Origin: a phage
Length of the DNA: 64,000 nt
Reading direction: 5' to 3' (one strand)
Assembly: GCA_014913405.1 (NCBI GenBank)
Contig: GCA_014913405.1_3931.1
Made by a program: the position numbers and the translations under genes. This document shows, one piece after another, positions 23,043 through 24,043 of the stretch; position 1 is the stretch's first letter, and every line of letters starts with the position of its first letter. A model generated the notes under the pieces. The model worked only from the letters and a program-made list of their open reading frames with translations, was not told the origin of the DNA and did no database searches.

Positions 23043-23051
23043 CCAGTTTTG

Positions 23052-23126
23052 ACAGAAGACCAATTACAGCAAACTTAATCTTATTCATCTGAAGGTAAAT
23101 CGGACAAAGAAGAGATTTGGTCTGGT
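23052..23126 (+). ncRNA. Structured inter-tRNA element E1 (CAGAAGACC ... GGTCTGG ends)
   Basis: Member of a family with conserved ends and compensatory stem changes. Confidence 0.45.
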
Positions 23127-23136
23127 CATTAAGAAT

Positions 23137-23210
23137 TGCGGGTATAGAGAAAGGGCGTCTCACATGTCTCATTAGCATGGTATCGGCAGGTTCGACTCCT
23201 GCACCCGCCT
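23137..23210 (+). tRNA. tRNA-like, CAT anticodon (Met/Ile2?), non-canonical
   Basis: Good T-arm and acceptor; 1-72 mismatch, 6-nt variable loop, U at position 37. Confidence 0.4.
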
Positions 23211-23218
23211 CCAAATTT

Positions 23219-23284
23219 ACAGAAGACCGTTTACAGCAATATTTATTAAATTTTTAGCGGAAAAATTGAAAGATACGGTCTGGT
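23219..23284 (+). ncRNA. Structured inter-tRNA element E2
   Basis: CAGAAGACCGTTTACAGCAA ... ACGGTCTGG. Confidence 0.45.
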
Positions 23285-23296
23285 AATACTAAACAT

Positions 23297-23370
23297 GGTT
23301 AGGAAGCACATAAGGTATGTGCGGTCGCCTGTTAAGCGAATGGCACAGGGTTCGAATCCCTGACTAACCG
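23297..23370 (+). tRNA. tRNA-Asn(GTT)
   Basis: Manual cloverleaf. Confidence 0.65.
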
Positions 23371-23442
23371 CCAAATTTAGGAGAGAAGCGATTGCTCACC
23401 GATTTGTAAGGTGCAAGTCCTTAGCCTGAATAGAAATCAAAT

Positions 23443-23527
23443 GTGTCGTTATCCCGTAGATGGTAGCGGTGGGGACTGTAAATCCCTTGTCATTGAGACT
23501 CGGTAGGTTCGACTCCTACACGGCACA
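23443..23527 (+). tRNA. tRNA-Tyr(GTA), class II with long variable arm
   Basis: Manual fold, 85 nt. Confidence 0.65.
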
Positions 23528-23536
23528 CCAAATAAA

Positions 23537-23611
23537 GGTTATGTAGTTTAATCTGGTTAAAATACTCCCCTGTCACGGGAGATGATGAGGGTTCAAATCC
23601 CTTCATAACCG
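23537..23611 (+). tRNA. tRNA-Asp(GTC)
   Basis: Manual cloverleaf, perfect anticodon stem. Confidence 0.7.
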
Positions 23612-23674
23612 CCAATTTTGAGAGGGCTATTTAGCCCCTCCCTTAAAGAGTTCTTACGAGTATTCTTTAAAGGA

Positions 23675-23750
23675 GCAGAAGACCAAATACAGCAAGCATG
23701 TATGAAATTTCAAACCAATTCAATTTTGAAAATTTAAAACTTGGTCTGGC
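23675..23750 (+). ncRNA. Structured inter-tRNA element E3
   Basis: CAGAAGACCAAATACAGCAA ... TTGGTCTGG. Confidence 0.45.
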
Positions 23751-23761
23751 TCAACAAATTT

Positions 23762-23895
23762 ACAGAAGACCGTTTACAGCAAAACTTAAACAATCTATTT
23801 CTCCGGTAAAGAAAAGGCGAGGGTTCGATTCCTTCACTCGGCAGATGTCGAGTTGGTGTAATGGTAGCACTTAAGATGATAAACAACGGTCTGGT
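23762..23895 (+). ncRNA. Structured element E4 containing tRNA-like T-arm and D-arm-like hairpins
   Basis: Same conserved ends; internal GGTTCGATTCC T-loop; no full tRNA folds. Confidence 0.4.
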
Positions 23896-24039
23896 AATTA
23901 TCTTTGTAGATAAGTTATTAAGCTTACCTGTGAGTATGCGACCACAAAGGGTGAATGGGTAAATTCTAGATTTAAACCCAAAAAGGCACATCGCTACAGA
24001 CCTTAAGCAAGTCTGGGTAGCTTATCTACAAAGATAATT
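23896..24039 (+). repeat. Perfect 19-bp inverted repeat (AATTATCTTTGTAGATAAG) enclosing about 105 nt
   Basis: Arms at 23896-23914 and 24021-24039. Confidence 0.8.
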
Positions 24040-24043
24040 TAAT

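What the first reader, a model, noticed from the sequence alone, without database searches (positions are those of the whole stretch)
23043..24043. Family of structured elements with conserved, co-varying ends interspersed between tRNA genes
Five elements (E1 23052-23126, E2 23219-23284, E3 23675-23750, E4 23762-23895, E5 25592-25681) share a 5' motif ACAGAAGACC(A/G)nTTACAGCAA and a 3' motif nnGGTCTGG. The ends pair (AGACCNN with NNGGTCT), and the variable positions change in a compensatory way: ACCAA/TTGGT in E1 and E3, ACCG/CGGT in E2 and E4. That pattern argues for a conserved RNA (or DNA hairpin) structure rather than chance. They sit directly after tRNA 3' ends but do not fold as tRNAs. 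By analogy with the stable small RNAs encoded in the T4 tRNA region they could be processed stable sRNAs; alternatively tRNA-processing decoys, small mobile inverted-repeat units, or recombination sites. This is my leading candidate for something undescribed in this window.
Basis: seen in the sequence. Interest (0 to 1): 0.8.

Follow-up and report, generated by a model that had tools for sequence, protein, structure and literature searches.

The report
Phage Y-like RNAs beside Ro60 homologue
Four small structured RNA genes tucked among this Felix O1-type phage's tRNA genes belong to a large, uncatalogued family of Y-RNA-like molecules (one is a rearranged tRNA mimic) that always travels with a phage version of the Ro60 RNA-quality-control protein.

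Summary
The window is a Felixounavirus. E1 (23050-23128), E2 (23218-23285), E3 (23673-23752) and E4 (23761-23896) share a terminal 'handle': a short lower stem, an AGA/G asymmetric loop, a 7-bp helix (AGACCNN/NNGGUCU), then UUACAGCAA on the 5' side and an A-rich 3' side. E4 also holds a circularly permuted tRNA-like domain (V hairpin, T arm, closed acceptor stem, D arm), which is the topology of bacterial YrlA Y RNAs. The ORF 330 nt upstream (21304-22719; Pfam DUF2828+DUF7788) has a predicted Ro60 fold (TROVE ring plus vWA). The same handle, with a freely covarying helix, lies next to homologues of this protein, on the same strand, in most of 60 very diverse phage contigs. This holds with or without tRNA genes nearby, and no other gene is conserved there. 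Best explanation: these are Y-RNA-like partner RNAs of a divergent phage Ro60, co-transcribed with the tRNA array and released by tRNA processing. No RNA-protein binding, expression or function was tested here. They are not in Rfam 15, and I found no description in the searchable literature. Verdict: a new variant of a known kind (Ro60-Y RNA systems), of moderate to high interest.

The parts
21304..22719 (+). Ro60-like protein gene (471 aa): an alpha-helical TROVE-like ring plus a C-terminal vWA domain with a MIDAS motif. It is the presumed protein partner of the RNAs.
   Evidence: Pfam gives DUF2828 + DUF7788 and PHROG 850 'RNA-binding protein'. The AlphaFold2 model has pLDDT 86 and pTM 0.87. 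The 12 best Foldseek PDB hits are all Ro60/TROVE structures, E 3e-8 to 3e-6, TM 0.4-0.64. D279, S281, S283, T349 and D381 are invariant in the 36-sequence alignment.
22738..22857 (+). Two sigma-70-like promoter matches (TTGACA-17-TAATAT at 22738-22766; TTGACA-18-TAAAGT at 22828-22857) upstream of tRNA-Pro. They are the likely start of the tRNA/E1-E4 transcript.
   Evidence: Consensus scan, 10 of 12 matches each. The total count in the region is not above the shuffled expectation, so this is a weak inference.
23050..23128 (+). E1, short-form Y-like RNA. Lower stem UGAC/GUCA, AGA/G loop, helix AGACCAA (23057-23063) / UUGGUCU (23117-23123), UUACAGCAA at 23064-23072.
   Evidence: R1 42.3 bits, E 2.8e-7. 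R2 52.5 bits. It starts 4 nt after the tRNA-Glu CCA and ends 8 nt before tRNA-Met.
23218..23285 (+). E2, short-form Y-like RNA. Lower stem UAC/GUA, helix AGACCGU (23224-23230) / ACGGUCU (23275-23281).
   Evidence: R1 51.7 bits, E 3e-9. R2 53.6 bits. It lies between tRNA-Met and tRNA-Asn.
23673..23752 (+). E3, short-form Y-like RNA. Lower stem GAGC/GCUC, helix AGACCAA (23680-23686) / UUGGUCU (23741-23747), AUACAGCAA variant.
   Evidence: R1 27.5 bits, E 3e-4. R2 40.6 bits, E 7e-5.
23761..23896 (+). E4, long-form Y-like RNA (YrlA-like). It has the same handle (UAC/GUA; AGACCGUU 23767-23774 / AACGGUCU 23885-23892) enclosing a permuted tRNA-like domain.
   Evidence: R1 162.6 bits (the model was built from it and its close relatives). 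The acceptor stem covaries among relatives.
23798..23870 (+). tRNA-like domain of E4. V hairpin UUUCU-CCGGUAA-AGAAA (23798-23814). T arm GAGGG-UUCGAUU-CCUUC (23819-23835). Acceptor stem ACUCGGC-AGAU-GUCGAGU closed by a tetraloop (23836-23853). UG. D arm GUGU-AAUGGUA-GCAC (23856-23870).
   Evidence: The MFE fold shows the four hairpins, and a custom scan finds them. U8, A14, G18-G19, A21 and the T-loop UUCGA are read directly from the sequence. Acceptor variants in relatives: ACACG/CGUGU (L011, L012) and ACCCUUC-GCCAAACA-GAAGGGU (L013, L014).

Best explanation
E1-E4 are genes for small non-coding RNAs of the Y-RNA type. They are the RNA partners of the divergent Ro60-like protein encoded just upstream. 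Steps, with their status. (1) Inferred: they are transcribed together with the tRNA array from the promoters at about 22740 and 22830. Because they sit 4-10 nt from tRNA ends, the enzymes that mature the flanking tRNAs (RNase P, 3' trimming) would release them. (2) Shown by covariation: each RNA closes on itself through a conserved 'handle'. This is a lower stem, an AGA/G asymmetric loop, and a 7-bp helix whose first three pairs are A-U, G-C and R-Y. The helix is followed by a single-stranded UUNCAGCAA on the 5' side and an A-rich strand on the 3' side. (3) Inferred from gene linkage and from how Ro60 binds Y RNAs: the handle is the docking site for the Ro60-like ring. (4) The interior of each RNA is a variable 'cargo'. 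E1-E3 carry short AU-rich hairpins (YrlB-like). E4 carries a circularly permuted tRNA mimic of YrlA topology, with an intact D-loop/T-loop elbow. (5) Inferred: the mimic recruits tRNA-recognising factors (modification enzymes, RNase P, CCA-adding enzyme, or an exonuclease such as PNPase) to the RNP. (6) Speculative: the RNP serves surveillance, decay or protection of structured RNAs, above all tRNAs, during infection.
For: The upstream ORF has the Ro60 fold and a conserved MIDAS motif.

A covariance model built only from Felix-type E4 sequences found 48 matches (E<=10) in 65 unrelated phage contigs that carry a homologue of this protein. All 48 are on the gene's strand. The second model found 73 matches (E<=1). 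All lie on the gene strand except one cross-hit to a tandem-tRNA junction in the T4 control. They fall in 39 of 60 contigs, and in the window only E1-E4 match.

A descriptor scan gave 147 hits on the gene strand against 10 on the opposite strand. Of 202 gene-strand occurrences of U.CAGCA[AC], 69 have a 7-bp complement plus G within 230 nt. The controls gave 2 (reversed helix) and 1 (shuffled helix) (p = 1e-22).

By the same strict scan, 44 of 65 contigs have a member within 1.5 kb of the gene, and 60 of 86 members lie within 500 nt. No protein family is shared by more than 16 of 61 contigs. Only 15 of 60 have tRNA genes nearby. So the RNA is linked to the Ro60-like gene, not to the tRNAs.

Covariation is strong. 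95.4% of cells are paired, against 60% in shuffles and 35-45% in slid controls. 22 of 24 pairs show double changes. The covariation score is 0.55 against 0.06-0.09 (likewise).

The E4 domain order (handle, V, T, closed acceptor, D, handle) equals that of YrlA (PMC4201824). Rfam's YrlA model matches one family member (L019 5770-5880) at 38.2 bits, E 7e-7 locally, through the T, acceptor and D arms.

In Chen et al. 2014, Y RNA genes likewise lie within 4 kb of Ro60 on the same strand. In a Listeria phage with a homologous protein, unannotated regions upstream of that gene are among the most highly transcribed, and the authors suspected Y RNAs (PMC12282133). The related phage LMSP-25 has three tandem family members at exactly that place.
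Against: No binding, expression or processing data exist for Felix O1-type phages.

The protein is not recognised as TROVE by Pfam, nor by a sequence or profile search of the PDB. The Ro60 relationship rests on a predicted structure.

The canonical bacterial Ro60-binding motif GNCGAAN0-1G is absent, and Rfam's YrlA model does not match any window element.

Folding energies of E1 and E4 are not better than those of shuffles.

Roughly a third of the homologous contigs gave no clear family member. In KVP40-like phages the members lie about 5 kb from the gene.

The covariation counts were made on model-fitted alignments, which lean towards the structure.
Confidence: 0.75

Rival explanations
1. The elements are processing or spacer modules of the tRNA operon. 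On this view they are structured spacers that guide RNase E, RNase III or RNase P cleavage, or that protect neighbouring tRNAs, and they have no dedicated protein partner.
For: E1 and E2 abut tRNA ends within 4-10 nt. Family members are also interleaved with tRNAs in KVP40-like, Listeria and Campylobacter phages.
Against: 45 of the 60 homologous contigs have no tRNA gene within 6 kb, yet most of them carry the RNA next to the Ro60-like gene. E3 and E4 do not abut tRNAs. A conserved single-stranded UUNCAGCAA and an elaborate tRNA mimic are not needed for a spacer.
Confidence: 0.08
2. The elements are cis-regulatory sites. On this view the handles are operator-like binding sites in the untranslated regions of the Ro60-like gene's transcript. 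The protein, or another factor, would use them to autoregulate expression or stability, and the elements would not be free-standing RNAs.
For: In many contigs members lie within 30-100 nt of the stop codon or start codon of the gene.
Against: In the window two promoter-like sites and two tRNA genes separate the gene from E1. Arrays of 3-7 copies with different cargos, including tRNA mimics with encoded CCA, are hard to explain as operators. This rival still implies binding by the Ro60-like protein.
Confidence: 0.08
3. The elements are DNA-level repeats: miniature inverted-repeat mobile elements, recombination sites, or single-stranded-DNA hairpins.
For: They are multi-copy, have short terminal inverted repeats, and sit in a region that in Felix O1 itself has acquired HNH homing-endonuclease genes.
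Against: All copies, in all phages, are on the same strand as the Ro60-like gene. Helices contain G-U pairs, which would be A-C mismatches on the other DNA strand. The four copies occupy the same positions in all 15 Felix-type contigs that reach that far, with no empty sites seen. The interiors differ completely between copies while only the handle is kept, which is the opposite of a recently transposed repeat.
Confidence: 0.03
4. The elements are decayed remains of tRNA genes. E4 would be the 3' half of one tRNA fused to the 5' half of the next, and the shared motifs would be leftover leader and trailer sequence.
For: Tandem tRNA junctions can mimic a permuted tRNA. The family model cross-hits such a junction in T4.
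Against: The two 'halves' of E4 form a perfect 7-bp acceptor stem that changes in a compensatory way in three lineages. The same handle encloses non-tRNA cargos. The elements are conserved across phages whose Ro60-like proteins are only 30-45% identical to the window's.
Confidence: 0.02

Closest known systems
YrlA (bacterial and mycobacteriophage Y RNA with a tRNA-like domain; Rfam RF02553; Chen et al. 2014, PMC4201824)
   Same: Both are encoded next to, and on the same strand as, a Ro60-type gene. In both, the 5' and 3' ends pair into a stem that carries the presumed protein-binding site. E4 has the same permuted domain order (V arm, T arm, closed acceptor-like stem, D arm), with the stem replacing the anticodon arm. 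Some relatives have a 7-bp acceptor stem followed by N-CCA, like M. smegmatis YrlA, which is cut by RNase P. The Rfam model weakly recognises one family member.
   Different: There is no GNCGAAN0-1G motif. The conserved element is instead AGR-helix + UUNCAGCAA + unpaired G. No window element matches RF02553 at E<=10. The partner protein is DUF2828/DUF7788, not a Pfam-TROVE protein. The genes occur in arrays of up to seven and are embedded in a tRNA operon.
YrlB and other short Y RNAs (S. Typhimurium, M. smegmatis)
   Same: E1-E3 are short RNAs that share the protein-binding module of the long form but lack the full tRNA-like domain. They are encoded in tandem with the long form.
   Different: The binding motif is different, and there are three short copies per genome. 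No experimental evidence exists for them.
Thermus phage phiLo Ro60 with Yrl1/Yrl2 (PMC12135203; PDB 9KOP, 9L5Y)
   Same: Both are phage-encoded Ro60-type rings with two or more adjacent Y-like RNAs. The phiLo protein is the best structural match of the window protein's model.
   Different: The phiLo RNAs carry the CGAA motif and lie upstream of the gene. The proteins are only about 16% identical. The phiLo RNAs are not reported to have a tRNA-like domain or a tRNA array.
Phage T4 stable RNAs C and D (species 1 and 2) in the tRNA cluster
   Same: Both are small stable RNAs encoded in a phage tRNA operon and released by tRNA-processing enzymes (established knowledge). rnaC ends in a T-arm/acceptor-like sequence.
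   Different: The T4 tRNA region gives no handle-descriptor hit. The only model match there is a tandem-tRNA junction, not rnaC or rnaD. No T4 record appeared among the listed hits of the phage-collection search with the protein.
Circularly permuted tRNA genes (Cyanidioschyzon merolae and other algae) and two-piece tmRNA
   Same: The 3' half precedes the 5' half, and the acceptor stem is formed across a linker.
   Different: Those are processed into functional tRNA or tmRNA. Here the anticodon arm is replaced by a protein-binding handle, so decoding is not expected.

Membership tests
YrlA / bacterial Y RNA | Gene lies within about 4 kb of a Ro60 orthologue and on the same strand | tested here: met
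   E1-E4 lie 331-1177 nt downstream of the Ro60-like ORF on the + strand. The same holds in 44 of 65 diverse contigs. 'Ro60 orthologue' holds here only at the level of predicted fold.
YrlA / bacterial Y RNA | tRNA-like domain in the order V, T, acceptor-like stem-loop, D, enclosed by a stem formed by the 5' and 3' ends | tested here: met
   Met for E4 only. All four helices covary in relatives. E1-E3 lack the domain and correspond to YrlB-type short forms.
YrlA / bacterial Y RNA | Conserved GNCGAAN0-1G motif near the 5' end (presumed Ro60 contact) | tested here: not met
   The sequences of E1-E4 have ACAGAAGACCNNUUACAGCAA instead. The family consensus is UUNCAGCAA.
YrlA / bacterial Y RNA | Match to Rfam RF02553 at or above its gathering score (69 bits) | tested here: not met
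   No RF02553 match in the window even at E<=10 on 1 kb. The best match in the wider family is 38.2 bits.
YrlA / bacterial Y RNA | Bound by the Ro60 protein in vivo; carries tRNA-type modifications; is a substrate of RNase P or the CCA-adding enzyme | not testable with these tools
   Needs co-immunoprecipitation, primer extension or in vitro cleavage.
Y RNA (general) | RNA of about 80-130 nt with a long terminal stem containing a bulged, conserved protein-binding helix and a large internal loop | tested here: inconclusive
   The terminal stem with the AGA/G asymmetric loop and the large internal loop are present. The lengths are 68-80 nt (E1-E3) and 136 nt (E4), just outside the usual range. 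The true ends are unknown.
Ro60 / TROVE protein family (for the upstream ORF) | Ring of alpha-helical (HEAT-like) repeats followed by a vWA domain | tested here: met
   The AlphaFold2 model has pLDDT 86. The top 12 Foldseek PDB hits are all Ro60 over the full length.
Ro60 / TROVE protein family (for the upstream ORF) | MIDAS motif (DxSxS ... T ... D) in the vWA domain | tested here: met
   D279, S281, S283, T349 and D381 are invariant in 36 homologues.
Ro60 / TROVE protein family (for the upstream ORF) | Detectable sequence similarity to TROVE (Pfam PF05731) or to solved Ro60 proteins | tested here: not met
   Pfam gives only DUF2828 + DUF7788. phmmer and a profile search of PDB sequences find no Ro60.
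Miniature inverted-repeat mobile elements | Terminal inverted repeats with target-site duplications, either orientation, presence/absence polymorphism | tested here: not met
   Single orientation everywhere. Fixed positions in all Felix-type contigs. No duplicated flanks are seen in the sequence. G-U pairs are present in the helices.
T4 rnaC/rnaD stable RNAs | Sequence or structure similarity to T4 species 1 / species 2 RNA | tested here: not met
   No handle-descriptor hit in the T4 tRNA region. The only R2 match there is a tRNA-Gly/tRNA-Leu junction.

The most novel reading that the evidence does not exclude
The handle may be a universal loading tag that lets a phage Ro60-like ring carry interchangeable RNA cargos. 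These cargos are tRNA mimics with or without an encoded CCA end, 200-250-nt structured domains, and minimal hairpins. On this reading the resulting RNPs act as decoys or sponges for host tRNA-targeting nucleases or tRNA-processing enzymes. They would protect the phage's own tRNA supply, and might be delivered pre-assembled, because the Listeria-phage homologue of the protein was detected in purified virions (PMC12282133). This would be a counter-defence role not known for any Ro60-Y RNA system.
Probability: 0.15. Interest if true: 0.85.

Novelty: new variant of a known kind. Interest (0 to 1): 0.62.

Why it matters
Ro60-Y RNA particles are an old puzzle whose bacterial functions are only partly understood. 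The search that defined bacterial Y RNAs was restricted to genomes with TROVE-annotated proteins (PMC4201824).

This finding gives the DUF2828/DUF7788 proteins a concrete RNA partner family. Homologues of the protein occur in about 710 phage records. They include Felix O1-type, Listeria P100-type, Campylobacter, Staphylococcus, Enterococcus, Vibrio KVP40-type and many mycobacteriophages. In public annotation these proteins are labelled only 'RNA-binding protein', 'Ro-like' or 'hypothetical'.

The family has a clean, testable binding module that differs from the canonical CGAA motif. Felix O1 infecting Salmonella or E. coli is a tractable system for asking three questions. What does a viral Ro60 RNP do? 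Why does it carry a tRNA mimic? Why is it so often wired into phage tRNA operons?

It also flags likely annotation errors. One example is the 'tRNA-Asn' in phage Gardann that overlaps a family member. More generally, it fills unannotated gaps in hundreds of therapeutic-phage genomes.

Tried and rejected
Rfam at gathering and permissive thresholds gave nothing but tRNAs and chance-level hits such as Dicty_Class_I_RNA at 20 bits.

Self-cleaving ribozymes (a hairpin-ribozyme-like ACAGAGAA resemblance), BHB splice motifs and restriction sites (GAAGAC) were considered by eye and dropped. The pairing registers do not fit, and no Rfam ribozyme family matched.

MAFFT alignments of divergent members misplace the 3' strand and the acceptor stem. 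I did not use them for pair counting. Model-guided alignments were used instead, with the bias that implies.

A looser pairing test (7 bp, any number of G-U pairs) had a 25-29% background and was replaced by a stricter one.

A lower stem at a fixed register is only weakly enriched family-wide, although it is clear in the Felix-type copies.

E5 and the 148-nt hairpin at 23896-24043 were tested as members and rejected.

T4 rnaC/rnaD were tested and rejected.

A search for a conserved protein neighbour, such as RtcB or PNK, across contigs found none. RtcB is near the gene in Listeria phage LMSP-25, and a polynucleotide kinase lies about 20 kb away in a Felixounavirus.

Supplementary tables of Chen et al. 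2014 and two Wolin-lab reviews were not available. I therefore could not check whether any DUF2828-type phage was in their list of 22 phages.
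Full report
WHAT THE WINDOW IS. The region matches 296 phage records at 80-99% identity, nearly all Ounavirinae/Felixounavirus (Felix O1, Alf5, Bas63 and others). ARAGORN finds 26 tRNA genes between 22884 and 28095, all on the + strand. 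Public annotation of related genomes lists only tRNAs and no feature at the E positions.

THE OBSERVATION. AGAAGACCNNNTACAGCAA occurs four times, all on the + strand (23054, 23221, 23677, 23764), against 0.08 expected. Each copy is followed 55-125 nt later by GGTCTGG.

Folding gives the same closure for all four:
- a 3-4 bp outer stem that differs between copies but always pairs (UGAC/GUCA, UAC/GUA, GAGC/GCUC, UAC/GUA);
- an asymmetric loop, AGA opposite G;

Stability is not exceptional (z from -1.0 to -2.5). E5 (25592-25681) has a different architecture, no CAGCAA and no GGUCUG, and is not matched by either family model. It is a separate hairpin that is nearly invariant among relatives.

The interior of E4 is a circularly permuted tRNA-like domain:
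- a V hairpin;
- a T arm, GAGGG-UUCGAUU-CCUUC;
- a 7-bp acceptor stem, ACUCGGC/GUCGAGU, closed by an AGAU tetraloop;
- UG;
- a D arm, GUGU-AAUGGUA-GCAC.

U8, A14, G18-G19, A21 and the T-loop UUCGA, the nucleotides that build the tRNA elbow, are all present in the sequence. Among Felix-type relatives the acceptor stem is replaced by ACACG/CGUGU (L011, L012) or by ACCCUUC-GCCAAACA-GAAGGGU (L013, L014) while staying paired. This excludes a chance juxtaposition of two tRNA halves.

The order handle, V, T, closed acceptor, D, handle is that of YrlA. YrlA is the bacterial Y RNA that mimics tRNA and binds the Ro60 orthologue Rsr (PMC4201824).

THE NEIGHBOURING GENE. The ORF ending 331 nt upstream of E1 (21304-22719, 471 aa) is DUF2828 + DUF7788 in Pfam and PHROG 850 'RNA-binding protein'. 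Sequence and profile searches of the PDB find nothing.

An AlphaFold2 model built from 36 homologues is confident (pLDDT 86, pTM 0.87). Its 12 best Foldseek matches in the PDB are all Ro60 structures over the full length: Thermus phage phiLo, Xenopus, human and Deinococcus. E-values run from 3e-8 to 3e-6 and TM-scores up to 0.64. The next matches are isolated vWA domains. The MIDAS residues D279, S281, S283, T349 and D381 are invariant. The protein is therefore a Ro60-like ring by predicted fold, though not by sequence-family membership.

THE FAMILY BEYOND THIS PHAGE. I fetched 80 viral contigs encoding homologues of the protein, 15 Felix-type and 65 with proteins only 38-47% identical to the window's. 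The evidence from them is as follows.

- All Felix-type contigs that reach far enough have the four elements at the same positions. The handles are conserved while the interiors vary.
- Model R1, built only from Felix-type E4 sequences, found 48 matches (E<=10) in the 65 distant contigs. All 48 are on the strand of the gene. Most lie immediately after its stop codon or before its start codon.
- Model R2, rebuilt from R1's matches, found 73 matches at E<=1. All are on the gene strand except one cross-hit to a tRNA-Gly/tRNA-Leu junction in the T4 control. The matches fall in 39 of 60 contigs. In the 64-kb window only E1-E4 match.
- A structure-blind test asked, for each gene-strand occurrence of U.CAGCA[AC], whether the 7 nt ending 3 nt upstream have a complement (at most one G-U) followed by G within 230 nt. 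The answer was yes for 69 of 202. It was yes for 2 with the helix reversed and 1 with it shuffled. On the opposite strand it was 2 of 133 (p = 1e-22).
- A fuller descriptor gave 147 hits on the gene strand against 10 on the other. It yielded 121 distinct elements with dozens of different helix sequences.
- The free positions define the family consensus: 5'-[A/U-rich]-A-G-R-NNNN-(U)-U-(A/U)-C-A-G-C-A-A ... A-rich ... NNNN-Y-C-U-G-3'. The U before CAGCAA is at 93%, and the second pair is invariantly G-C.
- Pair counts on the diverse R2-guided alignment (37 sequences): 95.4% of cells paired, against 60% in column shuffles and 35-45% when partners are slid. 22 of 24 pairs have changes on both sides. 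The covariation score is 0.55 against 0.06-0.09 (similar). These alignments are fitted to the model, which inflates pairing somewhat. The independent test does not have that bias.

LINKAGE. By the strict descriptor, 44 of 65 distant contigs have a member within 1.5 kb of the gene, and 60 of 86 members lie within 500 nt of it. All-against-all comparison of the flanking ORFs finds no protein family shared by more than 16 of 61 contigs. Only 15 of 60 contigs have any tRNA gene within 6 kb. The one constant companion of this RNA is therefore the Ro60-like gene. The embedding in a tRNA array seen here recurs in some lineages (KVP40-like vibriophages, L047/L048/L056, Listeria and Campylobacter phages) but is not general.

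A tblastn search finds the protein in 710 phage records from many hosts. Among them, mycobacteriophages annotate it as 'Ro-like RNA binding protein'. All three homologues I checked are DUF2828/DUF7788, not TROVE.

Spot checks agree:
- Mycobacteriophage Gardann has a long-form member just after the gene (44-50 bits). It overlaps an annotated 'tRNA-Asn'.
- Listeria phage LMSP-25 has three tandem members behind a strong promoter just before the gene.

MODULARITY. The same handle encloses different interiors:
- minimal AU-rich hairpins (71 of 121 elements are 85 nt or shorter);
- tRNA-like domains (at least 20 elements). Many have a discriminator plus CCA directly after the acceptor 3' strand. This recalls M. 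smegmatis YrlA, which is cleaved by RNase P and receives CCA;
- 200-250-nt structured domains that match no Rfam family.

RELATION TO KNOWN Y RNAs. Rfam's YrlA model (RF02553) does not match E1-E4. It does match one family member, L019 5770-5880, at 38.2 bits (gathering score 69; E 7e-7 in a 561-nt search). The match runs through the T, acceptor-like and D arms but not through the 5' motif region. The canonical GNCGAAN0-1G (CGAA) motif is absent and is replaced by UUNCAGCAA.

Chen et al. searched only genomes with TROVE-annotated proteins. That probably explains why this family was not captured, but I could not see their phage list. Full-text searches found no paper linking DUF2828, Felix O1 or Felixounavirus with Ro60 or Y RNAs. 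The nearest is a 2025 Listeria-phage study. It found the homologous protein in virions and speculated that highly transcribed unannotated regions upstream might be Y RNAs.

MECHANISM, AND HOW SURE.
- Shown: a conserved, covarying RNA structure family; its strand-specific linkage to a gene whose product is predicted to have the Ro60 fold; YrlA topology in E4.
- Inferred: co-transcription with the tRNAs from the promoter-like sites at 22738 and 22828; release by tRNA-processing enzymes; docking of the handle on the Ro60-like ring; recruitment of tRNA-recognising factors by E4.
- Speculative: a role in tRNA or structured-RNA surveillance, decay (RYPER-like, with host PNPase, as for phiLo), or protection against tRNA-targeting host defences.

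I put 0.75 on 'Y-RNA-like partners of the Ro60-like protein'. The rivals (bare processing spacers, cis-regulatory operators, DNA repeats, tRNA debris) together get about 0.2. They are argued against by the tRNA-independent linkage, the arrays of distinct cargos, the strand specificity with G-U pairs, and the acceptor-stem covariation.

VERDICT. The family is best filed as a new variant of the Ro60-Y RNA kind. It has a different binding module, a different protein sequence family, multi-copy arrays and wiring into a tRNA operon. It is not something categorically new.

Noticed in passing
window 25592-25681: 'E5' is a strong hairpin (MFE -30 kcal/mol, z = -4.0) between tRNA-Thr and tRNA-Val. It is almost invariant in 13 Felix-type contigs. 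It is not a member of the E1-E4 family and its function is unknown.
   Followed up: partly
window 23896-24043: A 148-nt hairpin with a stem of about 24 bp (z = -6.0) lies directly after E4 and before tRNA-Lys. It is conserved in relatives and unannotated. Inside is a mini-hairpin ACAGACC-UUAAGCAA-GUCUGG that looks like a collapsed version of the handle.
   Followed up: partly
window 24741-24825: A cloverleaf-like sequence with a 9-bp acceptor stem ending GCCA, a good T arm and a 9-nt 'anticodon' loop CCUCCAAAA. ARAGORN does not call it. The Rfam tRNA-Sec model gives only 23 bits. It may be an aberrant or pseudo tRNA.
   Followed up: partly
window 24219-24403 (also L011 8908-9094, L013 8984-9170): A sub-threshold match to Rfam tmRNA_permuted (29-31 bits, gathering 47) recurs at the homologous place in three phages. 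It starts inside tRNA-Ile. It may only reflect the tRNA part.
   Followed up: no
window 23374-23442 and 23615-23674: Two further structured spacers in the tRNA array (z = -2.2 and -3.4). The second has a GC-rich hairpin without a U tract.
   Followed up: no
L017 864-1109; L018 353-566 and 2595-2842; L022 7471-7722; L032 4793-5033; L060 5652-5898; L072 5658-5895; L079 5435-5674: In other phages the same handle encloses 200-250-nt interiors that share sequence blocks within lineages and match no Rfam family. In the KVP40-like contigs these sit between tRNA genes about 5 kb from the Ro60-like gene.
   Followed up: partly
L083 (Listeria phage LMSP-25) 1928-2479, 3118-3386 and 6308-7519: A ROOL-like RNA (88.5 bits, just under the gathering score of 99.1) is followed by three tandem handle RNAs behind a TTGACA promoter, then the Ro60-like gene, with an RtcB ligase gene 1.3 kb further on. 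This is an RNA-repair-like neighbourhood reminiscent of the Salmonella rsr-yrlBA-rtcBA operon.
   Followed up: partly
L082 (Mycobacterium phage Gardann) 4506-4634: The annotated 'tRNA-Asn' (4510-4580) overlaps a long-form family member with a UACAGUAA variant of the motif. The tRNA call is probably an artefact of the tRNA-like domain.
   Followed up: partly
L013 8461-8579; L019 5378-5509 and 5752-5881; L039 7947-8066 and 8154-8289; L068 8439-8532; L076 7470-7602; L081 5119-5240: Many long forms encode a discriminator base plus CCA immediately after the acceptor 3' strand, then a 4-19 nt linker before the acceptor 5' strand. This suggests cleavage into two paired halves with a tRNA-like CCA end. 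The window's E4 has a closed AGAU tetraloop instead.
   Followed up: partly
L001 (Felix O1) 5517-6002, 6490-6882 and 7800-8213, compared with the window: Felix O1 carries three HNH homing-endonuclease genes in tRNA-array spacers that are short and empty in this window.
   Followed up: no
L085 (T4) 2821-2947, minus strand: The family model cross-hits the junction of two adjacent tRNA genes (the 3' half of one plus the 5' half of the next). This is a predictable source of false positives when scanning tRNA arrays for permuted tRNA-like RNAs.
   Followed up: yes
L068 8919-8994: ARAGORN calls a tRNA with anticodon CUA (reported as tRNA-Pyl), i.e. a possible amber-suppressor tRNA, in a metagenomic phage contig next to family members.
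   Followed up: no
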